64,000 bases of DNA. Source: Escherichia coli (GTDB lineage: Bacteria; Pseudomonadota; Gammaproteobacteria; Enterobacterales; Enterobacteriaceae). Position 1 is the first letter of the stretch; the number at the start of each line of letters is the position of its first letter. The position numbers were made by a program, and so were the translations under genes. Location of the stretch: the NCBI RefSeq assembly GCF_013315695.1, contig NZ_CP054353.1. One strand, written 5' to 3'. Of the stretch, positions 46,472 to 64,000 are shown piece after piece. The notes under the pieces are model-generated. The model saw nothing but the letters and a program-made list of their open reading frames with translations. It had not been told where the DNA came from and ran no database searches.

Positions 46472-46615
46472 CTCCTTTATGCGAAGGGTTTTATAACTCT
46501 AACACCTTATCAGGCAGTTGCCTTAGCGCAGAATAAATTGATAACAAATGCTGATATTGGAAATATCTGATTTGCAAATTATCGTGTTATCGCCAGGCTT
46601 TAGGAGGTTAATAAC

Positions 46616-47089
46616 ATGGGCAGGATAAGCTCGGGAGGAATGATGTTTAAGGCAATAACGACAGTCGCCGCTCTGGTCATCGCCACCAGTGCAATGGCGC
46701 AGGATGATTTAACCATTAGCAGCCTGGCAAAGGGCGAAACCACCAAAGCTGCATTTAATCAGATGGTACAAGGGCATAAGCTGCCAGCCTGGGTGATGAA
46801 AGGCGGTACTTATACCCCCGCACAAACCGTGACATTGGGAGATGAGACGTATCAGGTGATGAGCGCGTGCAAACCGCATGACTGTGGCTCGCAACGTATC
46901 GCTGTGATGTGGTCCGAGAAATCTAATCAGATGACGGGGCTGTTCTCGACCATTGATGAGAAAACGTCGCAAGAGAAACTCACCTGGCTGAATGTGAACG
47001 ATGCGCTTTCGATTGATGGTAAAACGGTGCTGTTCGCGGCGTTGACCGGCAGCCTGGAAAACCATCCGGATGGCTTTAATTTTAAATAA
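46616..47089 (+). CDS. ivy: Inhibitor of vertebrate lysozyme
   Basis: 157-aa periplasmic ORF containing CKPHDCG. Confidence 0.92.
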   Translation: MGRISSGGMMFKAITTVAALVIATSAMAQDDLTISSLAKGETTKAAFNQMVQGHKLPAWVMKGGTYTPAQTVTLGDETYQVMSACKPHDCGSQRIAVMWSEKSNQMTGLFSTIDEKTSQEKLTWLNVNDALSIDGKTVLFAALTGSLENHPDGFNFK

Positions 47090-47105
47090 TTAGCCGATAA
47101 AGAAA

Positions 47106-47127
47106 CGGAGCCTTTCGGCTCCGTTAT
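47106..47127. terminator. Bidirectional terminator between the convergent ivy and fadE
   Basis: cggagcc / ggctccg stem with tttc loop. Confidence 0.65.
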
Positions 47128-47131
47128 TCAA

Positions 47132-49576: not shown

Positions 49577-49815
49577 AACGAAAAGCCCCTTACTTGTAGG
49601 AGGTCTGACCACTTGTGATGATATGGTTGTAGTGGATGTAAAAACATTTAGCAATACGTTTACAATATAATTACAACAAAGCTCACATTGTTGCTGTTTT
49701 TATCCGCACTTCAGGTCAAAAAGTCCTGGTCATAGCACCTGCCCGTACTTCTCGCTTTTGGCGGTATCCGGTACACTGCATTTTGTCTATTACATTTATG
49801 CTGAAGGATATCCTC

Positions 49816-50394
49816 ATGTACCAGGATCTTATTCGTAACGAACTGAACGAAGCGGCGGAAACGCTGGCTAATTTTTTAAAAGATGACGCCAATATTCACG
49901 CCATTCAGCGCGCGGCGGTCCTGTTAGCAGACAGCTTTAAAGGCGGTGGCAAAGTGCTTTCTTGCGGCAACGGCGGCTCCCATTGCGACGCTATGCACTT
50001 TGCCGAAGAGTTGACCGGTCGCTACCGTGAAAACCGTCCGGGCTACCCGGCGATTGCCATTTCTGACGTCAGCCATATTTCCTGCGTCGGTAACGATTTT
50101 GGTTTCAATGATATTTTCTCCCGTTACGTTGAAGCGGTAGGTCGCGAAGGCGATGTACTGCTGGGGATCTCCACCTCCGGTAACTCTGCAAACGTGATCA
50201 AAGCGATCGCGGCGGCGCGTGAGAAGGGGATGAAAGTGATCACCCTGACCGGTAAAGACGGCGGCAAAATGGCTGGCACGGCGGATATCGAAATTCGCGT
50301 ACCGCACTTTGGTTATGCCGACCGCATTCAGGAGATCCACATTAAAGTGATCCATATCCTGATCCAGTTAATTGAAAAAGAGATGGTTAAGTAA
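49816..50394 (+). CDS. gmhA: Sedoheptulose 7-phosphate isomerase
   Basis: 192 aa from [17 protein letters not shown]; SIS domain. Confidence 0.95.
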
Positions 50395-50509
50395 GGTCTT
50401 TTCTCCCTTTCAGGGAGAGGGCCGGGGTGAGGGTAACAGCCTGCACCTTTTTACTTTTTAATCAATCTTCGCCGGGGGCCATGCGCTCCCGCTGTTGTGG
50501 AGGTTACCC

Positions 50510-51277
50510 ATGTGCGAATTGCTCGGGATGAGCGCCAACGTCCCTACCGATATCTGCTTTAGTTTCACCGGACTTGTACAGCGTGGTGGTGGAACCGGGC
50601 CACATAAAGATGGCTGGGGCATTACCTTTTACGAAGGTAAAGGCTGTCGCACATTTAAAGATCCGCAACCCAGCTTTAATTCCCCCATCGCCAAACTTGT
50701 CCAGGACTACCCGATAAAATCCTGTTCGGTTGTGGCTCATATTCGCCAGGCCAATCGGGGCGAGGTGGCGCTGGAAAATACTCACCCGTTTACCCGCGAG
50801 TTATGGGGACGTAACTGGACTTATGCCCATAACGGGCAACTGACGGGGTACAAATCACTGGAAACCGGCAACTTCCGCCCGGTCGGTGAAACCGACAGCG
50901 AAAAAGCCTTCTGCTGGCTCCTGCATAAATTAACGCAGCGTTACCCGCGCACACCGGGCAATATGGCGGCAGTGTTTAAATATATCGCCTCACTGGCGGA
51001 TGAACTGCGGCAGAAGGGCGTTTTCAACATGCTGCTTTCTGACGGACGCTATGTAATGGCGTATTGCTCGACTAATTTACACTGGATCACCCGCCGCGCG
51101 CCGTTTGGCGTGGCAACGTTGCTGGATCAGGATGTGGAAATCGACTTCAGCTCGCAGACCACACCGAATGATGTGGTCACGGTGATTGCAACACAGCCGC
51201 TGACGGGCAATGAAACCTGGCAAAAGATTATGCCAGGCGAATGGCGCTTATTTTGCCTCGGGGAGCGTGTAGTTTGA
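50510..51277 (+). CDS. yafJ: Class II glutamine amidotransferase-like protein
   Basis: 255 aa beginning MCELLG (N-terminal nucleophile Cys2). Confidence 0.88.
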
Positions 51278-51988
51278 TGCCAGCTGTGGCTGCACAACTT
51301 CGTGGCTTAACGGCTTGCTGACCACGTAACGGCCATTGACCACAGAAACGGTCGGTGGCTTACGGGTTTGCTCAAAGTAGTCGTAACCTGGCTTCAGCTG
51401 CTCCCAGAAGTCCTTAAAGTTGGAATATTTATGGCGCTTCATATTGGCGTCGGTCATGCGGAACGGGTAAATACTCACTTGCACGCTCGGCTGACCAAAA
51501 ACCAGCGCACCAGTAACGAACTGGAAGATCTCATCAATACCCTGATTGGTCATCGCGTAGCAGCCGATGGAAACACAATCGCCGTGGATCATCAGATATT
51601 TCCCTTCATAACCATGCGCACGGTCATAGGCATTGGGGAATCCAATATTAATCGCTTTGTAGTAACGGCTGTCTGGTTTTAACTGATTACGCTGGACGCT
51701 ATAAAACCCTTCCGGGCTTTTGAAATCGCCCTGACGCTGTTTTGGCCCTAAGCCGCCGGAATATTTACAGATTTTATAGCTGTCGAGCAGTTGATATTGC
51801 TCGCCCATTTTGACGTAGAGATCGAGCGTACGTTCTTCCTTGAAGATCTGGATGTAGACAGGGGATCCCATCAACTGCTGCTTATACTCTTTGCTCACTG
51901 GCGTGGTCGAGCTACTGCTGCCCAGCAAACCGGCAAACGAAACGCACGGGATCAACAACATCGCAAGAATTAATGCGATTTTACGCAT
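51248..51988 (-). CDS. yafK: L,D-transpeptidase-fold periplasmic protein
   Basis: 246-aa ORF with signal peptide; convergent with and overlapping yafJ. Confidence 0.88.
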
Positions 51989-52143
51989 ACTGCTTATTCC
52001 TTGATAAAACGGTTACACACGCCAGGACGGCAAAATGGATCCCAAATCGGAATAGTCTGGATTGGGAAGGCTCACATTATCACCAAAAGAGTTTTACGCA
52101 AGCCTGTCGGCGCAGGGTTTACAAATTTCATCGGCAGCGGGCT

Positions 52144-52422
52144 TTACCCAAAGAGCGCCGCGTGAGTTCCAGTTCTCTCAAATCGTAAAAGTTTATCGGT
52201 AAGTTTGTAAATCAGGATCCAGTCCGGTTCGACATGAGCATCGCGATAACCTTTCCATGAACCTTGCAGCGGGTGGTCTTTATAAACAGCTGGAAGCAGT
52301 AAAGTATTATTGATAAGAAGCGTCATAAGATATTTCAATTTATTCATATCCTTATGACGCTTTTGTGCAAGTTTTACATCCTTTGAAAATTGTCCCGAGT
52401 ATTCAATATCCCTTTGAATCAT
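52144..52422 (-). CDS. yafQ: Type II toxin YafQ (RelE/ParE-fold mRNA interferase)
   Basis: 92-aa ORF immediately downstream of dinJ. Confidence 0.92.
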   Translation of the reverse strand: MIQRDIEYSGQFSKDVKLAQKRHKDMNKLKYLMTLLINNTLLLPAVYKDHPLQGSWKGYRDAHVEPDWILIYKLTDKLLRFERTGTHAALFG

Positions 52423-52424
52423 AT

Positions 52425-52685
52425 TTAAATTCCTAATTTATCAAATAAATCATCGGCGTCTTTGGCCTTATGAACACCAACGCCAGCTTCGCTGTTTTTG
52501 ATTGATTGAATAGTTAATTGATTAGGCTCGCGTAAATCAAACGGCAATGCCTTTTCACGCGCGACCTTTGTGAGGGTTATGCGAACCAGGTCAGAGATGG
52601 TCAGCCCCATCCCGGCCAGTACGTCCGCCGCCTGATTCTTCAGATCTTCATCGATTCGGGCGCGAACAAACGCGTTAGCAGCCAT
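52425..52685 (-). CDS. dinJ: Type II antitoxin DinJ
   Basis: 86-aa ORF (MAANAFVRARIDEDLKNQA...), 2 bp upstream of yafQ. Confidence 0.92.
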   Translation of the reverse strand: MAANAFVRARIDEDLKNQAADVLAGMGLTISDLVRITLTKVAREKALPFDLREPNQLTIQSIKNSEAGVGVHKAKDADDLFDKLGI

Positions 52686-52701
52686 TGGGGTATCTCCTGT
52701 G

Positions 52702-52717
52702 CTGTATATTTATTCAG
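52702..52717. promoter_or_regulatory. LexA box (SOS box) upstream of dinJ
   Basis: ctgtatatttattcag is a CTGT-N8-tCAG palindrome matching the LexA consensus, 17 bp upstream of the dinJ start. Confidence 0.75.
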
Positions 52718-52894
52718 CTTGAATTGTAGCTCAAATGAGCAACAGCGACAATCTATGAGTAATTTAATAAACGGATGTTTTTACATAATTAACTGAAATA
52801 TATTTATTAATTTTATAATAATGGTTTATTAAGTTTGTTCAGGTACGGGCCGGGATACACTGCAACATCAATGCATGACCAGCCATTATTGAGT

Positions 52895-53726
<832 letters not shown>

Positions 53727-53820
53727 ATCTGTGCATTTTTTGCGAGCCGCTTTCCCGTTTTTCCATCACCTCATTGCTGACCTTTCCTTTTCTTCTTACC
53801 GTTGAGAAAAAGGAGTCGCT

Positions 53821-54318
53821 ATGTCTGAATATCGTCGTTATTACATCAAGGGGGGAACATGGTTTTTCACGATAAATTTGCGGAATCGTCGAAGCCAACT
53901 TTTGACCACCCAGTACCAGACGCTCCGTAACGCCATTGTTAAAGTTAAGCGAGCCAGACCTTTTGAAATTAACGCCTGGGTAGTCTTGCCAGAGCATATG
54001 CACTGTATCTGGACATTACCTGAAAGCGATGATGATTTTTCCTCTCGCTGGCGTGAGATTAAAAAACAGTTCACTCAAACTTGCGAAATGAAAAATATCT
54101 GGCAACCGCGTTTTTGGGAGCACGCCATCCGCAATACCAAAGATTATCGCCATCATGTTGATTATATTTATATAAATCCAGTAAAACATGGCTGGGTAAA
54201 GCAAGTGAGTGATTGGCCATTCTCAACGTTCCATCGCGATGTCGCGAAAGGGTTATATCCCATCGATTGGGCGGGGGACGTAACGGATTTAAATGCTGGC
54301 GAGCGTATTATTTTATAA
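53821..54318 (+). CDS. rayT: REP-associated tyrosine transposase
   Basis: 165-aa ORF (IS200/IS605 TnpA-like) flanked on both sides by REP sequences. Confidence 0.9.
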   Translation: MSEYRRYYIKGGTWFFTINLRNRRSQLLTTQYQTLRNAIVKVKRARPFEINAWVVLPEHMHCIWTLPESDDDFSSRWREIKKQFTQTCEMKNIWQPRFWEHAIRNTKDYRHHVDYIYINPVKHGWVKQVSDWPFSTFHRDVAKGLYPIDWAGDVTDLNAGERIIL

Positions 54319-54326
54319 TTGTGCGC

Positions 54327-54436
54327 TGATGCCGGATGCGCTTACGCTTATCCAGCCTACGAATCGTGCCTTAACAGTAGGACGGATAAGGCGTTTACGC
54401 CGCATCCGGCAGTTGTGCACCGGTGCCGGATACCTA
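54327..54436. repeat. REP/BIME palindromic elements
   Basis: tgccggatgcgcttacgcttatccagcctac ... gtaggacggataaggcgtttacgccgcatccggc. Confidence 0.8.
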
Positions 54437-56527
54437 CATCAACGCCCCCATAATCTTCAACTCCAGCTCGTCCGGCACTTCGTTATACGACAGCACATGC
54501 AGCCCCGGTGCAAACAATCTCGCATAGCGCGCCAGCAAAGGGCGCAACTGCGGTGGCACCAGCAGCACAGGGTCTTTCCCCGCCGCTTTCATCTGCTCCT
54601 TCACCTGCGGCATCGTGTTCTGGAACTGGTTAAGCATATTCGGGTCCACCGGCACGCTGTCGAGCATCACTTTGCCGCCCTGTTGCGCCTGATTCACTAC
54701 GTTGGTCAGCAGATTTTCCAGCTCATTATTCAGCGTATACACCGTCAGCTCCTGTTTGCGAACGAACGGATGGGTAATGCTGCGCCGCAGCGCCAGGCGC
54801 ACATCGGCCGCCAGCAGAATATGATCTTTAGTCACCGCACTACTGGCGACCAGCACGGTGGCGATGGTGACGATATCGCGCAGGGAAACGCCTTCGGTCA
54901 GCAGCGTCCGGTACACTTTCAGCAACTGGCTGTAGTTGAGCGCCGCGCTCAAATCTTCCGCCAGGCGCGGTGCCATCGACGACAGGCGGTTATGCAACTG
55001 CGTGATGTCATCATAGTTAAATAATTCAGGAATATAGCTGCGCACAATCTTATTCACATGGGTGGCAATCACGCTGGCGCTGTCGATCACCTGATACCCC
55101 ATATTCAGCGCCTTCGCTTTCTGCGCAGGCTGGATCCAGGTGACCGGCATCCCATATGCCGGGTCATTCCCCAGTACGCCGTCAATCTCGCCGTAGGTTT
55201 CGCTGGAGGGCAACGCCATCAGTTTATCTGCCGGAATATCCGCTTCATCGGCCTTAATGCCGTTGATGAATATGGCGTACTGGCTGGGCTTGAGGCGGAA
55301 GTTTTCCCGAATACGGATCTCCGGCAGCAGCACGCCGTTGCCGTCGGAAATCACCTGCCGCACGCCGCGAATCCGCTGGGTGAGCGGGTTACCTTGGGCT
55401 TTATCGACCAGCGCCACCAGCTTGTAGCCGAGACTTAAGCTGATAGGCTCGATCAGCGGAATGGTTTCCCAACTGACCTGTTGCTCGCTGGTTTCGGTGA
55501 TGGTGCGGGTCAGTGTTTCGAGGCTTTTCTCTTCCGCCTCCGCCGCCTGCGGGCGTTTGCTCATCCGCCAGCCGGTAAAGCCAAGCAGGGCGCTGAACAG
55601 CAAAAATGGCAGATGCGGCATCCCCGGCACCACCGCCAGCACAAACATGATCCCGGTGGCGGTGTAGAGCACCGACGGGCTTGCCAGCAGCTGGTGGCGC
55701 ACGTCATGGGCGATATCGCCGTTGTCGCTGACGCGGGTGACGATAATTGCCGCCGCGGTGGAGAGCAGCAGGGACGGGATCTGCGCCACCAGGCCGTCGC
55801 CGATGGTCATCAGCACATATTGCTGGAAGGCGGCGTCGGCGCTCAGGTTGTATTTGAAGATGCCGATACAGACGCCGCCGATCAGGTTGATCGCCAGAAT
55901 CATCATCCCGGCGATGGCATCGCCGCGCACAAACTTCGATGCCCCGTCCATCGCGCCGTAGAAATCGGCCTCGCTGGCAACATCTTTACGCCGTGTTTGC
56001 GCCTGCGCCTGGTTGATCAATCCGGCGTTAAGATCGGCGTCAATCGCCATCTGCTTGCCGGGCATCGCGTCCAGGGTAAAGCGGGCAGAAACCTCGGAAA
56101 TACGCTCGGCCCCTTTGGTGACGACGATAAAGTTGATGATCATCAGGATGATAAACACCACAAAGCCGACGACAAAGTTGCCGCCAATCACCACCTGACC
56201 AAATGACTCAATCACCTTACCCGCCGCGCCTGCGCCGAGATGCCCGTGCAGCAGCACCACGCGCGTAGAAGCAACGTTAAGCGTCAGGCGCATTAAAGTG
56301 GTGATCAGCAAAATGGTCGGGAACAGGCTGAATTCCAGCGGTCGTTTCGCCGACACCGCCACCAGCAGCACCATCACCGCCAGCACAATGTTGAAGGTGA
56401 ACAGAATATCCAGCAGCGCAGGCGGCAGCGGCAGAATAACCATCGCCAGAATACAAAGTATAACCAGCGGTACGCCGAGATTACCGCCGCGCAGCAGCGC
56501 GAGGAACGATTTAGTTGTTTTCGCCAT
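54434..56527 (-). CDS. lfhA: Flagellar-type export apparatus protein, FlhA homologue (second flagellar system)
   Basis: 697-aa ORF with N-terminal polytopic membrane domain and FlhA-like cytoplasmic domain; intact. Confidence 0.85.
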   Translation of the reverse strand: MAKTTKSFLALLRGGNLGVPLVILCILAMVILPLPPALLDILFTFNIVLAVMVLLVAVSAKRPLEFSLFPTILLITTLMRLTLNVASTRVVLLHGHLGAGAAGKVIESFGQVVIGGNFVVGFVVFIILMIINFIVVTKGAERISEVSARFTLDAMPGKQMAIDADLNAGLINQAQAQTRRKDVASEADFYGAMDGASKFVRGDAIAGMMILAINLIGGVCIGIFKYNLSADAAFQQYVLMTIGDGLVAQIPSLLLSTAAAIIVTRVSDNGDIAHDVRHQLLASPSVLYTATGIMFVLAVVPGMPHLPFLLFSALLGFTGWRMSKRPQAAEAEEKSLETLTRTITETSEQQVSWETIPLIEPISLSLGYKLVALVDKAQGNPLTQRIRGVRQVISDGNGVLLPEIRIRENFRLKPSQYAIFINGIKADEADIPADKLMALPSSETYGEIDGVLGNDPAYGMPVTWIQPAQKAKALNMGYQVIDSASVIATHVNKIVRSYIPELFNYDDITQLHNRLSSMAPRLAEDLSAALNYSQLLKVYRTLLTEGVSLRDIVTIATVLVASSAVTKDHILLAADVRLALRRSITHPFVRKQELTVYTLNNELENLLTNVVNQAQQGGKVMLDSVPVDPNMLNQFQNTMPQVKEQMKAAGKDPVLLVPPQLRPLLARYARLFAPGLHVLSYNEVPDELELKIMGALM

Positions 56528-57650
56528 CCAGTTTAAGCACCTCTTTGGGAATGGAAATATGTCTGTTCAGGGCCGGGCGCGGCTGTGCGCCCTCGCGCCA
56601 GTGTTTCATTTGCAGGACGTAGGTCAGAACGTGGGCGATAGCCCGGTAAAGCTGAAACGGAATTTGTTGGTTCACCTGCGTGGTGTAGTAAACCGAGCGC
56701 GCCAGCCGCGGGAACTCGACCACTTCCACCTGATTCTCAGCGGCGACCTGGCGAATATAGAGGGCGATTTCATCGGTGCCTTTTGCCACCACAAACGGCG
56801 CGGCGGCGCGAGACTGGTCATACTGCAACGCCACGGCGTAGTGGGTCGGGTTGGTGATCACCACGTTGGCTTTCGGCACCACTTTGCGGATTTGCCCCAT
56901 CGCCAGCTGCCGTTGCAGCCGTCGCACGCGCGCCTTCACTTCCGGCTTGCCTTCCTGATTTTTGTACTCTTCTTTCAGCTCCTGCTTGGTCATCTTCAGC
57001 CCTTTGGTAAACAGGGCTTTCGCCAGCGGCACGTCGATAAGCGCAAAGAAGATAAACAGGATGACAAAGTTGCGCATCACGCTGGCGTAGAGCGACAAAC
57101 CCTCATTCATCGCCAGTTTGAACGGCAGCGCTTGCAGGCCGAGGAAGGCGGCAAAGTTATTGCGCAGGCTAATCCACAGCATCACCAGCACCACCACCGA
57201 CTTCGCCGTCATCTTTCCCGTTTCCGCCAGATGTTCACTGGAAAACAGCCGCCCAATCCCTTTTAACGGGCTAATTTTGCTGAAATCCGGGAGGATTTTT
57301 TTCGGCAGAAACAGCCAGCCGCCAGGCACCAGCGAGGAGAGCAGCGCAGCGGCGGGCATCGGCAGCAAGGTAAGAATAAACTTGCCGAGAATTAACAGGT
57401 GATGGCGCAGAAACTGGCCGATCACATCCGGGTTATTAATCTCCTGCGCGTACTGATGCACGCTGATAAAACTCTCACGCACAAAATCGGCATACCACGG
57501 GAAGCTGCTGGAGATCACCACAAACGCCGCAAACAGGCTCGCCGCCAGCCCCATATCCTTCGAGCGCGGCAGTTGCCCCTCTTCACGCGCTTTACGCAGC
57601 TTTTGCGCCGAGGGTTTCTCTGTTTTTTCTTCGCTGCTGCTATCCGCCAT
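56511..57650 (-). CDS. lfhB: Flagellar-type export apparatus protein, FlhB homologue
   Basis: 379-aa ORF with an FlhB-like N-terminus (MADSSSEEKTEKPSAQKLRKAREEGQ...). Confidence 0.85.
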   Translation of the reverse strand: MADSSSEEKTEKPSAQKLRKAREEGQLPRSKDMGLAASLFAAFVVISSSFPWYADFVRESFISVHQYAQEINNPDVIGQFLRHHLLILGKFILTLLPMPAAALLSSLVPGGWLFLPKKILPDFSKISPLKGIGRLFSSEHLAETGKMTAKSVVVLVMLWISLRNNFAAFLGLQALPFKLAMNEGLSLYASVMRNFVILFIFFALIDVPLAKALFTKGLKMTKQELKEEYKNQEGKPEVKARVRRLQRQLAMGQIRKVVPKANVVITNPTHYAVALQYDQSRAAAPFVVAKGTDEIALYIRQVAAENQVEVVEFPRLARSVYYTTQVNQQIPFQLYRAIAHVLTYVLQMKHWREGAQPRPALNRHISIPKEVLKLDGENN

Positions 57651-58422
57651 AGTGACCTTTCAGCGCGTCGAGTTGCTGCAACACAAAATTCGCCAGATGC
57701 AGATAGTGATCCGGCAGGTTGTAGAGCAGGGTGGCGAAGCAAACCAGCCCCGCCAGCATGTTGATGGGAAAGCCGAGCGAAAAAAGGTTCAGCGGCGGCG
57801 CAATGCGGTTAAGCAGGCCAAAGCAGCCCTGCACAATCAGCATGATAAAAGTGGTCGGCAGCGCCAGCAGTGATGCGGACGCCAGCACCCAGCTAAAGGC
57901 CAGCGCGATGGTGCGCAGGGGTTGCGGATGCAGCGCGTTGCCAATCGGCCAGTAGGTGAAGCCCTTATACAGCACGCTTACCAGCAGCAGATGCCCGTCC
58001 ATGGCAAAAAACAGCAGGATCGCGTAGACGTTAATTAACTCTGCCAGCACGGTTGTTGATGCGCCGCTGCTCGGGGCGTTCATCACCGCCATGCTCATCC
58101 CCATATTGAACGAGAGAATTTGCCCGGCCAGTTGCAGCGCCAGAAACAGAAACTGAAACATCAGCCCGAACAACATGCCCCATAATATTTGCTCCACCGT
58201 CAGGATCAGGCTATTGAGCGATAGCAGGTCGTGGGGAATGGGATGGGGGATCAACGGCGTGATGATGATCGCCAGCGCCAGCGACAATATAATCCGCACG
58301 CGCACGGTCAGGGCGCTGTTATCCAGCACCGGCACATAGCGCAGAAACGCCATAATGCGCACGAAGGGGAACCACAGCCCCAGCACCAGATCCATCAGTT
58401 GCGTAACGTCGCTTGTGCGCAT
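57640..58422 (-). CDS. lfiR: Flagellar-type export apparatus protein, FliR homologue
   Basis: About 260-aa polytopic membrane ORF from the internal Met; the supplied ORF extends to 58473. Confidence 0.8.
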   Translation of the reverse strand: MRTSDVTQLMDLVLGLWFPFVRIMAFLRYVPVLDNSALTVRVRIILSLALAIIITPLIPHPIPHDLLSLNSLILTVEQILWGMLFGLMFQFLFLALQLAGQILSFNMGMSMAVMNAPSSGASTTVLAELINVYAILLFFAMDGHLLLVSVLYKGFTYWPIGNALHPQPLRTIALAFSWVLASASLLALPTTFIMLIVQGCFGLLNRIAPPLNLFSLGFPINMLAGLVCFATLLYNLPDHYLHLANFVLQQLDALKGHYGG

Positions 58423-58423
58423 C

Positions 58424-58696
58424 TTAATGCACCAGCAGGGCGGCCTGACTAAACAGATGAATGCAGAGATCATGCAACTGGATAATCATCCATTTGCCGC
58501 ACACCCCCAGCACCACCAGCGTGACAATCAGCCTTGGCAAAAAGCTCAGGGTCTGTTCGTTAATCTGCGTCACCGCCTGGAACACGCTCACCAGCAGGCC
58601 GACCAGCAGGCTTGGCACCACCAGTACCGAAACCAGCAAAATCACTACTTTAATGCCGCTGGCGACAATGTCGGCGGCTACGTCTACGGTCAACAT
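58424..58696 (-). CDS. lfiQ: Flagellar-type export apparatus protein, FliQ homologue
   Basis: 90-aa two-helix membrane ORF. Confidence 0.82.
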   Translation of the reverse strand: MLTVDVAADIVASGIKVVILLVSVLVVPSLLVGLLVSVFQAVTQINEQTLSFLPRLIVTLVVLGVCGKWMIIQLHDLCIHLFSQAALLVH

Positions 58697-58698
58697 AA

Positions 58699-59451
58699 TC
58701 AGCCCAGCCCCAGCCCGCGAATGCTGGTGGTGAGCGTGCCGATGGTCAGCGACCAGCCGTCAATCAGCACAAACAGCATCAGTTTAAAGGGCAGCGAAAC
58801 AATCAGCGGCGACAGCATCATCATCCCCATCGCCATCAGTACGCTGGCGACAATCAGGTCGATAACCAGAAACGGGATGTAAATCATAAAGCCAATCTGG
58901 AAAGCGGTTTTCAGCTCGCTCAGTACATAGGCGGGCACCACGATGGAGAGATCCTGGTCGGCGGCATTGCCCTTCGCGCCGCCGATGGTCATGATTTGCG
59001 CCATCGCTTTTTTGTCGGTCTGCGCCAGCATAAAGCGTTTTAGCGGCGTCGCGGCGGTGCTTAACGCATCGGTCAGGGTAATCTGATCGTTTTCAAACGG
59101 CACTACCGCGTGGTCGTAAATATTGAGCCAGATGGGGCGCATTACCAGCAGGGTGAGTGAGAGCGCAATACCTATCAGAATGCGGTTCGGCGGCGTTTGT
59201 TGCAGCCCCAGCGCCTGGCGCAGCAGCGACAGCACGATAATAAAGCGCGTAAAGCAGGTCATCATCAGCACCATCGTCGGCAGCAAACCGACGAGGGTCA
59301 TCAGAATCAGTACCTGAATTTTGACGCTGTACTCCTGAGTGTTGCCGTGGGTCACCACGTTAAGTAGCGCAATATCGCCACCCTGGGCCAACGCCAGCGG
59401 CGCAAGCGCCAGCAGCCCAAGGCCCAGCGCCAGTTGAGTGCGGCGTTTCAT
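58699..59451 (-). CDS. lfiP: Flagellar-type export apparatus protein, FliP homologue
   Basis: 250-aa ORF with signal peptide and conserved FliP C-terminal region. Confidence 0.85.
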   Translation of the reverse strand: MKRRTQLALGLGLLALAPLALAQGGDIALLNVVTHGNTQEYSVKIQVLILMTLVGLLPTMVLMMTCFTRFIIVLSLLRQALGLQQTPPNRILIGIALSLTLLVMRPIWLNIYDHAVVPFENDQITLTDALSTAATPLKRFMLAQTDKKAMAQIMTIGGAKGNAADQDLSIVVPAYVLSELKTAFQIGFMIYIPFLVIDLIVASVLMAMGMMMLSPLIVSLPFKLMLFVLIDGWSLTIGTLTTSIRGLGLG

Positions 59452-59819
59452 GGTGCCAGGTCGTTGATATCGCGGGTGTTAAACTCCAGCACGCGCAGGC
59501 CGTACTTCTCGTTGACCACCACCACTTCCGCTTTGCCCAGCAGGATATTGTTCACTTTAATATCCAGCGGCTCCCCGGCGAGTTTATCCAGCTCAATCAC
59601 CGTGTCGTCGTCGATGTTAAGCAGGTCGGCTAACATAATTTCCACCGACGACACTTCCAGCGTTAAGGTCACCGGAATGCGTTTCAGCAGCGTCATCGAG
59701 TCGGAAAAGCGGTCTTCCAGGCGGGTGACCAGCGTTTCGGCGTCGGCGGATTTCGTGACAGGCGCAACTTCATCGGCGAGGCCAAAATCCCCGGCTAAAA
59801 TATCGTCTTGTTTACTCAT
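59448..59819 (-). CDS. lfiN: Flagellar switch protein, FliN homologue
   Basis: About 124 aa from the internal Met, with C-terminal SpoA-like domain; the supplied ORF extends to 59879 and would overlap lfiM by 68 bp. Confidence 0.78.
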   Translation of the reverse strand: MSKQDDILAGDFGLADEVAPVTKSADAETLVTRLEDRFSDSMTLLKRIPVTLTLEVSSVEIMLADLLNIDDDTVIELDKLAGEPLDIKVNNILLGKAEVVVVNEKYGLRVLEFNTRDINDLAP

Positions 59820-60663
59820 GGCTATTCTCATTCTTGCCCGCCAGCTCCGACAAAAACAGTTTGTCTTTGTCTTCCACAATCAGGGCGCTAAATAATTCAG
59901 ATTGCCCAATCGCCACCGGGAACGTTTCTCCCAGCGAGATGGGTAAAATATCCCCGGCTTTTATCTGCGCCAGATCGGCGACATTCATCGATAGCTCGGC
60001 GATTTTGACGTTCAGGGTCAGCGGCAGGGAGCGGATGATTTCTTTAATCAGGGCCGGTTTATTAACGGATTTCGCCACCTGCTGCGGTTTACTGTGCTCG
60101 CTGTGGCGGATCAGATTCAAAATAAAATCGGTGTGGGCGTCGTCGAGCAAAATACGAAAACTGCTCTCTTCATCGCCCGCAAGGGTAAAGGTTAATTGAT
60201 ACGCCCAGTGGGTAATCACCGTGCTGCTGTCCAGTTTTAATTTCAGCGCAATACCGGAGGTTTGCAGATTAAAGATCAGCGTGCAGATATCCAGCGCGAG
60301 TCGGTTCTTTAACCGCGTTTCGGTTTTGGTCGGCAGCCCGTTATGCGCTTTCGCCTCTTCAAGAGAGGACTCCAGACCATAAAAATTGCCCAGCAGCATT
60401 AACAGCAAGGAGCGATCAATATCAAACGCCAGATGCCCGACCTGGGAAACCATCAGTTCGGCGTTTTTATTAATAATATCCATTTCGCAGCCAATCTTTT
60501 TTAGGGTGATATTGCTGCGATGCTTTTTGAGAAAGTAGCTGCCAAGATGCGAATCAATCACGTCAAAATTCCCCGTAAACAGGGTCGGCAGGCGATGGTA
60601 GGGGCGTCCGAGCCGATTACCTTCTAATTTAAAGATGCCTGGCGTTTTACTGTACTTCAGCAT
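59812..60663 (-). CDS. lfiM: Flagellar switch protein, FliM homologue
   Basis: 283-aa ORF at the head of the minus-strand lfiMNPQR-lfhBA block. Confidence 0.75.
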   Translation of the reverse strand: MLKYSKTPGIFKLEGNRLGRPYHRLPTLFTGNFDVIDSHLGSYFLKKHRSNITLKKIGCEMDIINKNAELMVSQVGHLAFDIDRSLLLMLLGNFYGLESSLEEAKAHNGLPTKTETRLKNRLALDICTLIFNLQTSGIALKLKLDSSTVITHWAYQLTFTLAGDEESSFRILLDDAHTDFILNLIRHSEHSKPQQVAKSVNKPALIKEIIRSLPLTLNVKIAELSMNVADLAQIKAGDILPISLGETFPVAIGQSELFSALIVEDKDKLFLSELAGKNENSHE

Positions 60664-60842
60664 GGCTTACTTTCTCTGCTGTAATGGTATGGGCGTTGTT
60701 GTGCACGCAAATCCGGCAGTGACACAAGGTGAGGTATTAAATAGAGGGGGCGTGAAAGGGGCAAATTATTAATAGGGTGAAAAAATAATTAAATTATTAA
60801 AGGGCGAGGTATCGGGCATCGTCATAAAACATTGCACGAATT

Positions 60843-60925
60843 GTAGGCCTGATAAGAGGCGCAGCGTCGCATCAGGCATCGGTGCACAATTGCCGGATGG
60901 CGGCGTAAACGCCTTATCCGGCCTA
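60843..60925. repeat. REP/BIME palindromic elements in the lfiM-lafK divergent intergenic region
   Basis: gtaggcctgataagaggcgcagcgtcgcatcaggc and gccggatggcggcgtaaacgccttatccggcctac. Confidence 0.8.
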
Positions 60926-61050
60926 CGGTTCTAACTCATTGTTTATCAACAAATAATATTTTTATTATCGTTTAATTCGAACTTGTTAATCCCGCCGGTG
61001 ATACGCTTCAGAACATCCTGTTTTCTGTCGCTACTTATATCGTTCACCCT

Positions 61051-62037
61051 ATGTCTGAACTTATTGCAACTGCCGCTTCCAGCATTAACGCTTTTACTCT
61101 GGCAAAGCGTGTCGCCGCCTTTAACGTGCCGGTGCTCATTCAGGGCGAAACCGGCGCGGGCAAAGAATGCGTGGCGAAATATATTCACACCGTAGCCTTT
61201 GGTGAAAATGAAAGCGCACCCTATGTCGGCGTGAACTGCGCGGCGATCCCGGAAAATATGCTGGAATCCACGCTATTTGGCTATGACAAAGGCGCATTTA
61301 CCGGCGCAATTGCCAGCGTGCCAGGAAAAATGGAACTGGCAAATAACGGCTCCTTATTGCTCGATGAAATTGGTGAAATGCCGCTGGCGCTACAGGCCAA
61401 AATATTACGCGTGTTGCAGGAACAACAGGTTGAGCGATTAGGCAGCAACCGACAAATCAAACTCAATTTTCGCCTGATTGCCTGCACCAATAAAAACCTG
61501 GAGCAGGAAGTTGCCGCCGGACGTTTTCGTGAAGATCTCTATTATCGTCTGGCGGTTATCCCTATTACCATGCCGCCACTGCGTGAACGCCTGAACGATA
61601 TTATTCCGCTGGCGGAGTCATTTATTAAAAAATACTCCACGGTGCTGGTGAAAAATATCACCCTGTCCGAATCCACCCGCCGTGCGCTGCTTAATTACCG
61701 CTGGCCCGGTAACGTGCGCCAACTGGAAAACGCCATTCAGCGGGGAATGATTTTAAATCGCGACGGCGTAATTTACCCGGATGCATTAGGCCTGCTGGAA
61801 ACGGACGTTGCTGACCACAGCGAACTGCAATGGCCTGTTCAGCCCGCCGTCCACATTGCCGAAACCAGCGATTTGGGCCAGCACGGACGAAGCGCGCAAT
61901 ATCAATATATCGCCGACCTGATGCGTAAATATCAGGGCAACCGCAGCAAAATCGCCGACCTGTTAGGCATTACCCCGCGCGCACTGCGCTATCGACTGGC
62001 CTCCATGCGCAAGCAAGGTATCGAAGTTTTCTCCTGA
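61051..62037 (+). CDS. lafK: Sigma54-dependent transcriptional activator (AAA+ and HTH domains only)
   Basis: 328-aa ORF; Walker A GETGAGKE at about residue 32, GAFTGA sigma54-contact motif, C-terminal HTH; no receiver or other N-terminal domain. Confidence 0.8.
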   Translation: MSELIATAASSINAFTLAKRVAAFNVPVLIQGETGAGKECVAKYIHTVAFGENESAPYVGVNCAAIPENMLESTLFGYDKGAFTGAIASVPGKMELANNGSLLLDEIGEMPLALQAKILRVLQEQQVERLGSNRQIKLNFRLIACTNKNLEQEVAAGRFREDLYYRLAVIPITMPPLRERLNDIIPLAESFIKKYSTVLVKNITLSESTRRALLNYRWPGNVRQLENAIQRGMILNRDGVIYPDALGLLETDVADHSELQWPVQPAVHIAETSDLGQHGRSAQYQYIADLMRKYQGNRSKIADLLGITPRALRYRLASMRKQGIEVFS

Positions 62038-62051
62038 CCCGGAAGTTAAAA

Positions 62052-62393
62052 ATGAGCATTACCACAATCAACAGCACCATGCAGGCGCAAATCATGCAGG
62101 ACGTGCAGCGGATGCAGGCCAACGCCCAGGCACCGGTGCTGCCCGCCATGACCTTCAGTTCCACCGACCCGGACGTTTCGTTTAACCGCATTATGAGCGG
62201 TGCGCTCGGTCATGTTGACCAGTTCCAGCAGGTGGCGGAGCAGCAGCAAACGGCTGTCGACACGGGCAAAAGTGATGACCTTGCCGGGGCGATGATCGCC
62301 AGCCAGCAGGCGTCGCTCTCTTTCTCCGCGCTGGTGCAGGTGCGCAACAAAATCGCCACCGGATTTAACGATCTGATGAGTATGTCGATCTAA
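62052..62393 (+). CDS. lfiE: Flagellar hook-basal body protein, FliE homologue
   Basis: 113-aa ORF with conserved FliE C-terminus (...VQVRNKIATGFNDLMSMSI). Confidence 0.8.
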   Translation: MSITTINSTMQAQIMQDVQRMQANAQAPVLPAMTFSSTDPDVSFNRIMSGALGHVDQFQQVAEQQQTAVDTGKSDDLAGAMIASQQASLSFSALVQVRNKIATGFNDLMSMSI

Positions 62394-62397
62394 CCCT

Positions 62398-64000
62398 ATG
62401 AATGCACAAATAAAGAAGTTAACCCAGGCGTTTCCGGCGTTTCGACTGCGTCTTGCAGATAACAAACGCTGGGCATTGATGGCGGGAGTGGGGCTTGCCG
62501 TTGCGGCGACGGCGATTATCGTCAGCGTACTGTGGACCGGTAATCGCGGCTACGTCTCGCTCTACGGACGCCAGGAAAATCTGCCCGTGTCGCAGATTGT
62601 CACCGTGCTGGATGGCGAAAAGCTCAGCTACCGCATCGACCCGCAAAGCGGGCAGATTCTGGTGCCGGAAGATGAACTGTCGAAAACGCGCATGACCCTT
62701 GCTGCCAAAGGCGTGCAGGCGATCTTGCCCAGCGGCTACGAGCTGATGGACAAAGACGAAGTGCTCGGCAGCAGCCAGTTCGTGCAGAACGTGCGCTACA
62801 AACGCAGCCTCGAAGGGGAGCTGGCGCAGAGCATTATGTCGCTGGACGCGGTGGAGAGCGCGCGGGTGCATCTGGCGCTCAACGAAGAGAGCTCGTTTGT
62901 GGTCAGCGATGAGCCGCAAAACAGCGCCTCGGTGGTGGTGCGTCTGCATTACGGCGCGAAGCTGAATATGGACCAGGTGAACGCCATTGTGCATCTGGTT
63001 TCCGGCAGCATTCCGGGGCTGCACGCCAGCAAAGTTAGCGTCGTCGATCAGGCGGGAAATCTGCTGACCGACGGCATTGGCGCGGGCGAAGCGGTTTCAG
63101 CCGCTACCCGTAAACGCGATCAGATCCTCAAAGATATTCAGGACAAAACCCGCGCCAGCGTGGCGAACGTGCTGGATTCGCTGGTCGGCAGCGGGAATTA
63201 CCGCGTCAGCGTCATGCCGGATCTCGACCTCAGTAATATCGATGAAACTCAGGAACACTACGGCGACGCGCCGAAAATCAACCGCGAAGAAAACGTGCTG
63301 GACAGCGATACCAATCAGGTGGCGATGGGTGTGCCCGGTTCGCTTAGCAACCGCCCGCCGGTTGCACCTAATCAGGTTACTAACGGCGCGATGCCCGCCG
63401 ACGAAAATCGCTCGCCGGAAGCCCTTTCGAAACACAGCGAAAGCAAGCGCGATTACTCTTACGACCGCAGCGTCCAGCATATTCAGCATCCCAGCTTTAC
63501 GGTGAAACGCCTCAACGTGGCGGTGGTGCTCAATCAAAACGCTCCGGCGCTGAAAAACTGGAAGCCGGAGCAGACCACGCAGCTTACCGCGCTGCTGAAC
63601 AATGCCGCCGGGATCGACGCGCAACGTGGAGACAATCTCACCTTATCGCTGCTTAACTTTGTCCCGCAGGCGGTGCCGGTCGAACCAATTATTCCGTTGT
63701 GGAAAGATGACAGCGTGCTGGCCTGGGTGCGGCTGATTGGCTGCGGCCTGCTGGCGCTGTTGTTGCTGTTCTTTGTGGTGCGCCCGGTAATGAAACGACT
63801 GACGGCGGTACGTGCGCCGGTTATCACACCAGAACCGGAAGCTGTCAGCGAACCGTGGATTGCCATGCCGGAAGAGGAACGCAAAAACGTCGATCTGCCG
63901 TCGCTGCCCGGCGATGACAGCCTGCCGTCCCAGAGTTCCGGCCTCGAAGTAAAACTCGAGTTCCTGCAAAAACTGGCCATGAGCGACACCGATCGCGTAG
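62398..64000 (+). CDS. lfiF: Flagellar MS-ring protein, FliF homologue (3-prime end cut by window edge)
   Basis: Open frame from the ATG at 62398 to the window end (over 530 codons) with N-terminal and late transmembrane segments typical of FliF; absent from the supplied ORF track, presumably because no stop codon lies inside the window. Confidence 0.8.
   Translation, partial: MNAQIKKLTQAFPAFRLRLADNKRWALMAGVGLAVAATAIIVSVLWTGNRGYVSLYGRQENLPVSQIVTVLDGEKLSYRIDPQSGQILVPEDELSKTRMTLAAKGVQAILPSGYELMDKDEVLGSSQFVQNVRYKRSLEGELAQSIMSLDAVESARVHLALNEESSFVVSDEPQNSASVVVRLHYGAKLNMDQVNAIVHLVSGSIPGLHASKVSVVDQAGNLLTDGIGAGEAVSAATRKRDQILKDIQDKTRASVANVLDSLVGSGNYRVSVMPDLDLSNIDETQEHYGDAPKINREENVLDSDTNQVAMGVPGSLSNRPPVAPNQVTNGAMPADENRSPEALSKHSESKRDYSYDRSVQHIQHPSFTVKRLNVAVVLNQNAPALKNWKPEQTTQLTALLNNAAGIDAQRGDNLTLSLLNFVPQAVPVEPIIPLWKDDSVLAWVRLIGCGLLALLLLFFVVRPVMKRLTAVRAPVITPEPEAVSEPWIAMPEEERKNVDLPSLPGDDSLPSQSSGLEVKLEFLQKLAMSDTDRV

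What the first reader, a model, noticed from the sequence alone, without database searches (positions are those of the whole stretch)
54434..64000. The Flag-2 block appears more GC-rich than the flanking core genes
By eye, lfhA to lfiF are dense in GCG, CGC and GGC codons, and the antisense strand carries many long spurious ORFs (a typical sign of high-GC coding sequence), in contrast to the yafK-dinJ-yafL region just upstream. This would support horizontal origin. I did not compute GC content.
Basis: inference. Interest (0 to 1): 0.25.

Follow-up and report, generated by a model that had tools for sequence, protein, structure and literature searches.

The report
GC-rich Flag-2 flagellar cluster, known
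The start of E. coli's optional second (lateral-type) flagellar gene cluster really is more GC-rich than its neighbours, almost entirely at silent codon positions; this is a published fact, and it marks an old, unusual history, not a recent foreign insertion.

Summary
Observation confirmed. Window 54434-64000 has 55.6% GC. Window 1-30000 has 52.3%, 36700-54433 has 50.1%, and a 300-kb sample of the same genome has 49.9%. The excess lies at silent sites: GC3 is 0.71 against 0.54, while GC1 is equal and GC2 is lower. Eight of 10 genes reach GC3 of 0.69 or more, against 1 of 217 background ORFs. The exceptions are lfiM, lafK and their intergenic region.

The block is the left end of the 38.2-kb Flag-2 cluster of E. 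coli. De Maayer et al. 2020 already report a G+C excess of +4.8% for Escherichia Flag-2 loci.

"Horizontal origin" is only partly supported.
- The cluster sits at the same site in Citrobacter and diverges in proportion to its flanks.
- It has no tRNA gene, integrase gene or direct repeats at its borders.
- Its diversity within E. coli is deeper than that of the flanks.
- The remnants in K-12 and E. albertii are equally GC-rich.

Among seven genera, however, the Escherichia copy alone is clearly GC-richer than its own flanks. Its lineage gained GC while the E. coli flanks lost it.

Best reading: an old swap from a GC-richer relative, made before Escherichia species split. This is ordinary and already known, so interest is low.

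The parts
54434..56527 (-). lfhA, the FlhA-type export gate and leftmost gene of Flag-2. GC 0.580, GC3 0.752. K-12 and E. albertii keep only 54434-56137 of it as a pseudogene.
   Evidence: TIGR01398 scores 773.7 bits, cut-off 772.1
56511..57650 (-). lfhB (FlhB-type). GC3 0.718.
   Evidence: TIGR00328 scores 343 bits, just under the 349 cut-off
57640..58422 (-). lfiR (FliR-type). GC3 0.766.
58424..58696 (-). lfiQ (FliQ-type). GC3 0.725.
58699..59451 (-). lfiP (FliP-type). GC3 0.749.
59448..59819 (-). lfiN (FliN-type switch protein). GC3 0.694.
59812..60663 (-). lfiM, a divergent FliM/FliN-family switch protein. It is not GC-rich (GC 0.486, GC3 0.606) and is the low-GC3 gene of the cluster in every genus examined.
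60664..61050 (.). Divergent lfiM-lafK intergenic region, GC 0.439. It contains a REP/BIME-type repeat at about 60834-60931 that matches several places in most E. coli genomes (5,160 of 5,426 had a match to the query).
61051..62037 (+). lafK, a sigma-54-dependent activator with an AAA+ domain and an HTH but no receiver domain. It has core-like composition (GC 0.522, GC3 0.565).
62052..62393 (+). lfiE (FliE-type). GC3 0.781, the highest in the block.
62398..64000 (+). lfiF (MS-ring FliF-type), cut by the end of the window; the full gene ends 53 bases beyond it. GC3 0.71.
54319..54433 (.). Left border of the GC step: a REP/BIME pair between rayT and the lfhA stop codon. No tRNA gene and no direct repeat shared with the right border.
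53821..54318 (+). rayT (yafM), a REP-associated tyrosine transposase. It is AT-rich (GC 0.434) and is a variable insert at the yafL/lfhA junction. E. coli DCE7 has hicAB there instead, and Citrobacter youngae and C. werkmanii have nothing there (C. sedlakii has only a small unannotated ORF).
52895..53644 (+). yafL, an NlpC/P60 peptidase. It has the highest GC3 of the 'core' genes (0.644). Its orthologue abuts lfhA in all five other Enterobacteriaceae genera sampled, so it may belong with Flag-2.

Best explanation
**What it is.** Window 54434-64000 is the first 9.6 kb of the 38.2-kb Flag-2 (lateral-type, secondary) flagellar cluster of E. coli. It holds the export-gate and switch operon lfhAB-lfiRQPNM, the sigma-54 activator lafK, and lfiE-lfiF.

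**Where the GC excess lies.** Its GC-richness is real. It lies almost wholly at silent positions of four-fold codon families: GC4 is 0.85 against 0.63.

**Age of the cluster.** The cluster is an old resident, not a recent island.
- It occupied the yafL|dinB site before Escherichia and Citrobacter diverged.
- It was already GC3-rich before E. coli and E. albertii split.
- It has since been lost from about three quarters of E. coli strains by one deletion, which leaves the lfhA'-lafU' scar.

**Most likely cause of the compositional mismatch (inferred, not shown).** The copy now in Escherichia spent a long time under a GC-richer substitution regime than the E. coli chromosome. The simplest way for that to happen is whole-cluster replacement or re-acquisition by homologous recombination from a closely related, GC-richer enterobacterium. 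The conserved flanks or the scar's two gene remnants would serve as the homology arms. The cluster has been losing GC slowly since then.
For: **Shown.**
- GC, GC3 and codon contrast.
- Not an amino-acid effect: GC1 is equal and GC2 is lower.
- Not translational selection. E. coli's T-ending optimal codons are depleted: CGT falls from 0.41 to 0.14 and GGT from 0.36 to 0.12.
- Flag-1 paralogues have GC3 of only 0.596.
- Across seven genera, the GC3 of the same 12 Flag-2 genes stays at or somewhat below that of the flanks. E. coli is the exception, at 0.706 against 0.585.
- On aligned codons, E. coli exceeds Citrobacter by +0.10 in GC3 and +0.03 in GC1 within Flag-2. It shows no such excess in the flanks: GC1 and GC2 differ by 0.003 or less, and flank GC3 is no higher than in Citrobacter.
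- Polarising four-fold sites over three lineages gives, on the E. coli branch, 59 AT>GC and 37 GC>AT changes in Flag-2, against 24 and 57 in the flanks (Fisher p = 4e-5).
- C. sedlakii shows the opposite mismatch: 15 and 96 in Flag-2 against 29 and 30 in the flanks (p = 9e-7). The C. freundii complex shows none.
- Mismatches in both directions fit exchange of clusters among relatives better than a force specific to Flag-2.

**Antiquity.**
- Same site in three Citrobacter species.
- lfhA remnant GC3 is 0.753 in K-12 and 0.748 in E. albertii.
- Four-fold-site distance within E. coli is 0.067-0.120 in Flag-2 against 0.046-0.082 in the flanks.
- REP/BIME repeats lie inside the cluster in E. coli, but this pattern is absent from the Citrobacter loci.

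**Current trend.** Polarised changes within E. coli run net GC>AT in Flag-2 under all four schemes: 305:173, 95:36, 133:77 and 48:11. This fits slow loss of GC.

**Literature.** Escherichia flag-2 loci deviate by +4.8% G+C (range +2.6 to +5.8). E. coli strains lacking the cluster carry truncated lfhA and lafU (PMC6993521).
Against: - No donor lineage was found. The nearest non-Escherichia LfhA proteins are from the Citrobacter freundii complex at 92-93% identity, and those copies are not GC-rich.
- The Flag-2 tree is proportional to the flank tree. The amino-acid distance ratio is 2.07-2.11 for E. coli-Citrobacter pairs and 1.99-2.47 among Citrobacter. This is exactly what vertical descent predicts. 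A swap would be hidden only if the donor belonged to the same near-star radiation.
- The dinucleotide signature is not an outlier (89th percentile of native windows).
- The codon pattern is unlike that of GC-rich hosts. Four-fold sites are extreme (GC4 0.85), but two-fold sites stay E. coli-like (0.48, against 0.60 in Dryocola Flag-2).
- Polymorphism within E. coli implies a higher equilibrium GC4 for Flag-2 (0.66-0.78) than for the flanks (0.37-0.54). This hints that something still favours GC in place, although these estimates are sensitive to polarisation error.
Confidence: 0.5

Rival explanations
1. Strictly vertical inheritance. The cluster has stayed in the Escherichia lineage since the common ancestor with Citrobacter. 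Some local, GC-favouring process has kept or raised its silent-site GC while the rest of the chromosome drifted AT-ward. Candidates are GC-biased gene conversion at a highly recombining presence/absence locus, or weak selection for E. coli's G/C-ending major codons in four-fold families.
For: - Same chromosomal site and strictly proportional divergence from Citrobacter.
- No closer donor among 5.8 billion proteins, at the resolution of 90% clusters.
- Mosaic distances within E. coli show frequent recombination in the cluster.
- The rate of AT>GC change per AT site is 2-5 times higher in Flag-2 than in the flanks under all four polarisation schemes, while the GC>AT rate per GC site is similar (within about 1.25-fold). 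The implied GC4* is 0.66-0.78 against 0.37-0.54.
- Two-fold codon usage is E. coli-like.
- The inferred node common to the E. coli and Citrobacter copies was already GC-rich, and both Citrobacter lineages lost GC.
Against: - No known mechanism confines such a force to one 38-kb cluster with sharp borders at lfhA and lafU.
- The same genes in the other genera sit at or below their flanks, and the C. sedlakii copy evolved AT-ward relative to its flanks. The force would have to be specific to Escherichia.
- Biased gene conversion should also raise GC at two-fold sites, and it hardly does.
- The net flux in E. coli today is GC>AT.
- The rate estimates are inflated by mis-polarisation when GC sites outnumber AT sites six to one.
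Confidence: 0.3
2. Recent horizontal acquisition of a mobile genomic island by this strain or lineage, which is the plainest reading of the first reader's inference.
For: - Compositional contrast.
- Present in only 1,272 of 5,426 complete E. coli genomes.
- The allele in the window is rare: 99% identity or more in 5 genomes.
Against: - Absence is explained by one deletion. The scar retains both ends of the cluster, and the junction is identical in K-12 and E. albertii.
- Remnants diverge from the window about as much as the flanks do. K-12 lfhA' is 94.4% identical, against 95.4% and 96.4% for the flanks.
- Silent diversity among Flag-2-positive strains exceeds that of the flanks.
- Syntenic in Citrobacter.
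- No integrase gene annotated in the cluster, and no tRNA gene or direct repeats at its borders.
Confidence: 0.03
3. The contrast is a by-product of what the genes encode or how they are expressed. Candidates are membrane-protein amino-acid composition, flagellar gene function, or codon adaptation for high expression.
For: - Flag-1 paralogues are also slightly above the core (GC 0.543, GC3 0.596).
- Flagellar genes in several genera have somewhat high GC4 relative to their GC at two-fold sites.
Against: - GC1 is equal and GC2 is lower than in the core.
- The same proteins in Citrobacter and Hafnia are encoded at GC3 of 0.52-0.61.
- E. coli's T-ending optimal codons and TTC are depleted.
- Flag-1 GC3 is 0.11 lower than Flag-2 GC3.
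Confidence: 0.03

Closest known systems
Flag-2 locus of E. coli 042 and other Escherichia (Ren et al. 2005, J Bacteriol 187:1430; De Maayer et al. 2020, PMC6993521)
   Same: - Same genes in the same order.
- Same position, with yafL/rayT to the left and dinB to the right.
- Same lfhA'-lafU' scar in strains that lack the cluster.
- Same published G+C excess over the genome, +4.8% on average for Escherichia. Measured here: 55.4% for the whole cluster against 49.9% for the genome sample.
   Different: - Nothing essential differs.
- This allele is uncommon. It is 95-97% identical to the other roughly 1,267 Flag-2-positive complete genomes.
- All its annotated genes are intact. In 042, lfgC is reported frameshifted (PMC3032704).
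- My additions are the codon-level breakdown, the flank-controlled comparison with Citrobacter, and the branch-wise direction of change.
Flag-2 loci of the Citrobacter freundii complex ('Citrobacter Clade A')
   Same: - Orthologous and syntenic: lfhA lies next to yafL-yafK-yafJ-lpcA-fadE.
- LfhA is 92-93% identical.
- The divergence is proportional to that of the flanks.
   Different: - The Citrobacter copies match their own flanks in composition (GC3 0.61 against 0.61).
- The E. coli copy is 0.10 higher at GC3 and 0.03 higher at GC1 on aligned codons.
Classical horizontally acquired genomic or pathogenicity islands
   Same: - Composition deviates from the genome.
- Patchy distribution among strains.
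   Different: - No tRNA insertion site, no direct repeats, no integrase gene.
- GC-rich, where such islands are usually AT-rich.
- The patchiness comes from deletion of an ancestral cluster, not from insertion.
Lateral flagellar (laf) systems of Vibrio parahaemolyticus and Aeromonas
   Same: - Same type of secondary flagellar system, regulated through a sigma-54 LafK activator.
- Aeromonas caviae LfhA is 58% identical.
   Different: - A distant homologue in a different genomic context.
- Function has been shown experimentally in those species but not in E. coli (PMC3032704).

Membership tests
Flag-2 secondary (lateral-type) flagellar cluster of Enterobacterales | Cluster-1 gene content and order: lfhAB-lfiRQPNM, divergent from lafK-lfiEFGHIJ. 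| tested here: met
   RefSeq annotation of the identical record. NCBIfam matches FlhA, FliR, FliP and FliE above their cut-offs; FlhB, FliQ and FliN fall just below. The order is the same in six other genera.
Flag-2 secondary (lateral-type) flagellar cluster of Enterobacterales | In Escherichia, the cluster lies between yafL/rayT and dinB, and the K-12 pseudogenes lfhA' and lafU' correspond to its two ends. | tested here: met
   K-12 retains window 54347-56137 joined to extended coordinate 91848 onward.
Flag-2 secondary (lateral-type) flagellar cluster of Enterobacterales | Its own regulators and filament genes: a sigma-54 activator LafK, a FliA-type sigma factor, lateral flagellin LafA, and the stator proteins LafT/LafU. 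| tested here: met
   LafK matches sigma-54 AAA+ activator families without a receiver domain. lafA, the sigma factor, motA and lafU are annotated just beyond the window.
Flag-2 secondary (lateral-type) flagellar cluster of Enterobacterales | Assembles functional lateral flagella. | not testable with these tools
   All annotated cluster genes are intact in this strain. Function in E. coli has not been demonstrated in the literature I read (PMC3032704).
Horizontally acquired genomic island (classical criteria) | Base composition or codon usage deviates from the host genome. | tested here: met
   GC3 is 0.71 against 0.54. One of 217 background ORFs reaches 0.69.
Horizontally acquired genomic island (classical criteria) | Inserted at a tRNA gene, bounded by direct repeats, and carrying an integrase or other mobility genes. 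| tested here: not met
   The nearest tRNA gene (tRNA-Asp, 45517-45593) is 9 kb away. The borders share no repeat of 11 bp or more. No integrase or transposase gene is annotated inside the cluster.
Horizontally acquired genomic island (classical criteria) | Phylogeny disagrees with the core genome, or the chromosomal site differs in relatives. | tested here: not met
   Same site in three Citrobacter species. The Flag-2/flank distance ratio is constant across pairs. Only a few taxa were available.
Horizontally acquired genomic island (classical criteria) | Atypical dinucleotide (genome) signature. | tested here: not met
   Delta* is 66.9e-3, the 89th percentile of native 9.6-kb windows.
Horizontally acquired genomic island (classical criteria) | The substitution history differs from that of adjacent host genes on the same lineage. 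| tested here: met
   On the E. coli branch, Flag-2 shows 59 AT>GC and 37 GC>AT changes against 24 and 57 in the flanks, p = 4e-5. The method is parsimony on partly saturated sites.

The most novel reading that the evidence does not exclude
Two related readings remain open.

1. The GC-richness of the Escherichia Flag-2 cluster is not a fading import signature. It is a state kept up in place by a local GC-favouring process.
2. Whole Flag-2 clusters are repeatedly swapped between enterobacterial genera. The conserved lfhA'/lafU' deletion scar would act as a ready-made pair of homology arms. This would also explain why E. coli and E. albertii both keep intact and identically scarred alleles, with roughly 25% intact in each.
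Probability: 0.25. Interest if true: 0.45.

Novelty: already known. Interest (0 to 1): 0.15.

Why it matters
On its own it matters little. The Flag-2 cluster, its patchy distribution, its deletion scar and its G+C excess in Escherichia are all published.

The useful lesson concerns method. A GC or GC3 contrast alone cannot date or prove a transfer. Here a strong compositional anomaly coexists with conserved synteny, divergence proportional to the flanks, deep diversity within the species and no mobility hallmarks.

The residual puzzle is why one 38-kb cluster keeps four-fold-site GC at about 0.85 inside a genome whose neighbouring genes sit at about 0.63. It could be settled with existing public genomes.

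Tried and rejected
- **Amino-acid composition as the cause.** Rejected: GC1 is equal and GC2 is lower, and orthologues in other genera have low GC3.
- **Translational selection.** Rejected: CGT, GGT, GTT, GCT and TTC are depleted.
- **A property shared by flagellar genes.** Flag-1 paralogues reach GC3 of only 0.596.
- **Recent island insertion.** There is no tRNA gene or direct repeat at the borders and no integrase gene in the cluster, and the scar and diversity data argue against it.
- **Dinucleotide signature as a test for foreign DNA.** Uninformative; the value is within the native range.
- **Codon usage as a donor fingerprint.** The pattern matches none of the sampled genomes. It combines very high GC4 with E. 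coli-like two-fold sites.
- **Polarised polymorphism within E. coli, to decide between decay and maintenance.** Four schemes agree that the net flux is GC>AT. The implied equilibria depend on the polarisation error, so the question stays open.
- **Scan of species-representative genomes with LfhA.** It yielded only C. werkmanii, E. albertii and Aeromonas as useful loci. Other genera were recovered through protein hits and their contigs.
- **Ren et al. 2005 (PMC545627).** Not held in the library. What I say about it rests on citing papers and my own knowledge.

Full report
**What the window is.**
- Window 52000-64000 matches E. coli chromosomes, 100% to isolate AF3 (NZ_OZ547117.1).
- That record's RefSeq annotation places ispC-lpx-dnaE-accA, an rRNA operon and yafC-yafL/rayT in window 1-54318.
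- From 54434 onward it places flhA, flhB, fliR, fliQ, fliP, two FliM/FliN-family genes, a sigma-54 activator, fliE and fliF.
- These are the Flag-2 genes lfhAB-lfiRQPNM, lafK and lfiEF. The cluster continues to lafU at extended coordinate 92619, 38.2 kb in all, and is followed by dinB.
- NCBIfam confirms the identities. FlhA, FliR, FliP and FliE score above their cut-offs. FlhB, FliQ and FliN fall just below. LafK matches sigma-54 AAA+ activators but has no receiver domain.

**Checking the observation.**
- GC is 0.5555 for 54434-64000, 0.5225 for 1-30000 and 0.5007 for 36700-54433. It is 0.4988 for 300 kb sampled from six regions of the same genome, one of which is window 1-50000.
- The whole cluster is 0.5536. 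Its immediate flanks are 0.491 and 0.504.
- The difference sits at third codon positions. The ten Flag-2 genes in the window average GC3 of 0.707, and the 47 other genes average 0.542 with a maximum of 0.644 (Mann-Whitney p = 4e-6).
- GC1 is equal and GC2 is lower in Flag-2.
GCG goes from 0.39 to 0.51, CGC from 0.38 to 0.64 and GGC from 0.37 to 0.56.
- In the genome sample, 1 of 217 long ORFs reaches GC3 of 0.69, and that one lies antisense to the annotated yfaU. In the window block 8 of 10 genes reach it, and in the whole cluster 17 of 31 long ORFs do.
- The only 9.6-kb windows as GC-rich as the block lie in the tail region of a lambda-like prophage.
- Unannotated ORFs of 100 aa or more cover 65% of the block, against 40% and 28% of the two core stretches.
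- The observation therefore holds, with three caveats:
  1. lfiM, lafK and their intergenic region are not GC-rich.
  2. The 'yafK-dinJ-yafL' comparator is low in GC because of yafQ-dinJ, rayT and intergenic DNA. yafK and yafL themselves have GC3 of 0.61-0.64.
  3. Total GC overlaps with core genes such as dnaE, fadE and tilS. GC3 is the discriminating measure.

**Trivial causes ruled out.**
- Amino-acid composition is excluded by GC1 and GC2.
- Translational selection is excluded. E. coli's T-ending optimal codons (CGT, GGT, GTT, GCT) and TTC are depleted.
- The Flag-1 paralogues of K-12 have GC3 of only 0.596.

**Is it a recent import? No.**
- K-12 keeps window 54347-56137 (the 3' part of lfhA, 94.4% identical) joined to the 3' part of lafU. 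Its flanks are 95.4% and 96.4% identical. The remnant is therefore about as old as its surroundings.
- The E. albertii type strain has the same junction to the base...ATAAAGTTGAT|TGTCAACAGCG, with 3 bp of microhomology.
- Remnant GC3 is 0.753 in K-12 and 0.748 in E. albertii, against 0.763 for the window over the same codons. The GC-rich state therefore predates the E. coli-E. albertii split.
- 1,272 of 5,426 complete E. coli genomes carry the internal part of the cluster. This agrees with the published 24% (PMC6993521) and with the 25% reported for E. albertii (PMC11420993).
- Among three Flag-2-positive E. coli strains, four-fold-site distances are 0.067-0.120 in Flag-2 and 0.046-0.082 in 14 flanking genes. 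Values vary gene by gene in a mosaic pattern.
- No tRNA gene or direct repeat marks the borders, and no integrase gene is annotated in the cluster.
- REP/BIME repeats of the E. coli type lie in at least seven intergenic spots of the cluster. My pattern finds none in the Citrobacter loci.
- The dinucleotide signature is unremarkable.

**Comparison with other genera.**
- In Citrobacter werkmanii, C. youngae and C. sedlakii the cluster lies at the same site, with lfhA next to yafL-yafK-yafJ-lpcA-fadE.
- The ratio of Flag-2 to flank amino-acid distance is 2.07-2.11 for the C. freundii-complex pairs (1.95 for C. sedlakii). It is 1.99-2.47 among Citrobacter. The four-fold-site ratios are 1.03-1.20. 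That is the pattern expected from co-descent with the flanks.
- Composition nevertheless differs. For the same 12 genes, GC3 in Flag-2 and in the flanks is:

| Genus or species | Flag-2 GC3 | Flank GC3 |
|---|---|---|
| E. coli | 0.706 | 0.585 |
| C. youngae | 0.612 | 0.614 |
| C. sedlakii | 0.601 | 0.650 |
| Dryocola | 0.734 | 0.732 |
| Pseudescherichia | 0.703 | 0.747 |
| Hafnia | 0.520 | 0.541 |

- Scandinavium Flag-2 has GC3 of 0.682; its locus held no usable flanking genes.
- Only Escherichia stands clearly above its flanks.
- lfiM and lafK are the low-GC3 genes in every genus. The unevenness inside the block is therefore a conserved property of the cluster, not a sign of mosaic origin.
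- On aligned codons the E. coli copy exceeds Citrobacter by 0.10 at GC3 and 0.03 at GC1. In the flanks GC1 and GC2 differ by 0.003 or less, and E. coli flank GC3 is no higher than Citrobacter's.

**Direction of change.**
- I assigned four-fold-site changes to the E. coli, C. freundii-complex and C. sedlakii branches by majority rule:

| Branch | Flag-2 (AT>GC : GC>AT) | Flanks (AT>GC : GC>AT) | Fisher p |
|---|---|---|---|
| E. coli | 59 : 37 | 24 : 57 | 4e-5 |
| C. freundii complex | 13 : 51 | 15 : 42 | not significant |
| C. sedlakii | 15 : 96 | 29 : 30 | 9e-7 |

- The cluster and its neighbours thus have discordant compositional histories in two of the three lineages, and in opposite directions.
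- This is easier to explain by clusters having spent time in other, related genomes than by a force tied to Flag-2 itself.
- Within E. coli, four polarisation schemes all give a net GC>AT flux in Flag-2: 305:173, 95:36, 133:77 and 48:11.
- The same schemes give a higher AT>GC rate per AT site than in the flanks. The implied equilibrium GC4 is 0.66-0.78 against 0.37-0.54.
- Because GC sites outnumber AT sites about six to one in Flag-2, even modest mis-polarisation inflates that rate. I treat this as unresolved.

**An unexplained detail.**
- The excess is confined to four-fold codon families. GC4 is 0.846 against 0.632 in the core.
- Two-fold sites barely move (0.484 against 0.431). Phe TTT, Ile ATT and Lys AAA stay preferred.
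- Flag-2 copies in GC-rich hosts shift at both classes of site. Dryocola, for example, has 0.825 and 0.605.
- Neither a simple import nor biased gene conversion predicts this.
- One possibility is pure inference. After an import, two-fold sites relax to E. coli's A/T-ending habit. Four-fold sites are retained because the donor's G/C-ending codons (CTG, CCG, GCG, ACC, GGC, CGC, GTG) are also E. coli's major codons.

**Comparison with what is known.**
- De Maayer et al. 2020 (PMC6993521) report that flag-2 loci of Escherichia exceed the genome by 4.8% G+C on average (range +2.6 to +5.8), whereas Citrobacter Clade A deviates by 0.0%.
- They suggest the Escherichia loci were derived by horizontal transfer. 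They also report that all 76 E. coli strains lacking the locus carry truncated lfhA and lafU.
- Ren et al. 2005 called the locus ancestral. I could not read that paper.
- Carter et al. 2024 (PMC11420993) report the truncated locus in Flag-2-negative E. albertii.
- The finding is therefore already known.
- My additions are the codon-position breakdown, the flank-controlled test of congruence, the base-identical junction in the two species, and the branch-wise direction of change.

**Verdict.**
The cluster is not a recent or island-type import.
- Its compositional history on the Escherichia lineage does differ from that of the adjacent chromosome.
- I give about 0.5 to an old homologous swap from a GC-richer close relative, made before Escherichia species diverged.
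- I give about 0.3 to strictly vertical descent with GC maintained in place.
- Interest is low.

Noticed in passing
window 52895-53644 (yafL); L091 12133-12894; L092 12427-13188; L093 12475-13269; L094 13145-14041; L095 12100-12813: A YafL orthologue (NlpC/P60 peptidase, 55-77% identical over its length) abuts lfhA in all five other Enterobacteriaceae genera sampled. This holds where the rest of the flank differs (Dryocola) and where the gene lies inside the Flag-2 cluster (Scandinavium, Pseudescherichia). No such gene is present in the Hafnia or Aeromonas loci. The Flag-2 FlgJ homologue is only a 99-aa rod-binding protein. YafL might therefore be the peptidoglycan hydrolase of this system, and the true left edge of Flag-2 may lie left of yafL. 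A full-text search for yafL together with flagella returned three papers, none evidently about this; I did not read them.
   Followed up: partly
window 56137/56138, joined to 91848 of the extended sequence (L002 41848); L010 about 6060; L014 (reverse complement) about 11680: The Flag-2 deletion junction is identical to the base in E. coli K-12 and the E. albertii type strain: ...ATAAAGTTGAT|TGTCAACAGCG, with only 3 bp of microhomology. Both species keep intact and scarred alleles, with roughly 25% intact in each. This suggests either a polymorphism shared across the two species or transfer of the scar between them.
   Followed up: partly
L092 (Citrobacter sedlakii), Flag-2 genes 486-12094 against flank genes 13534-21463: C. 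sedlakii shows the mirror image of the E. coli anomaly. Flag-2 GC3 is 0.60, below its flanks at 0.65. There is a strong GC>AT excess on that branch in Flag-2 (96 against 15) but none in the flanks (30 against 29).
   Followed up: partly
window 54319-54433 and 60834-60931; extended coordinates about 74959, 76988, 80000-80270, 83994 and 86276: REP/BIME-type repeats occupy many intergenic gaps of Flag-2, right next to the REP-associated transposase gene rayT. Their positions differ among E. coli strains. My pattern finds none in the Citrobacter loci.
   Followed up: partly
window 52144-52685 (yafQ-dinJ) and 53821-54318 (rayT); L098 17503-18130: The small genes around yafL vary. E. coli DCE7 lacks dinJ-yafQ and carries hicAB where this strain has rayT. 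Citrobacter species lack dinJ-yafQ, rayT and ivy.
   Followed up: yes
window 56200-64000 compared with window 1-15000: The Flag-2 allele of this strain is uncommon. Only 5 complete genomes match it at 99% or more, and the other roughly 1,267 Flag-2-positive genomes are 95-97% identical. By contrast, the housekeeping block 40-50 kb away is 98.5-98.8% identical to the bulk of E. coli.
   Followed up: partly
window 16004-17350 (IS4) and 37337-38034 (IS1 inside dkgB); also L003-L006: The strain carries many IS1, IS2, IS3 and IS4 copies and interrupted genes. An IS4 lies between accA and ldcC, and an IS1 splits dkgB. Elsewhere fimbrial genes, dosP and iucA are disrupted.
   Followed up: no
Flag-2 coding sequence, 54434-64000 and the whole cluster: The GC excess is confined to four-fold codon families (GC4 0.85). 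Two-fold families stay A/T-ending (TTT 0.70, AAA 0.74). This differs from Flag-2 copies in GC-rich hosts and is not predicted by simple import or by biased gene conversion.
   Followed up: partly
L003 about 3000-14000 (AF3 genome 203-214 kb): The tail-gene region of a lambda-like prophage is the only other stretch in the 300-kb genome sample as GC-rich as the Flag-2 block (up to 57.5% in 9.6-kb windows).
   Followed up: no
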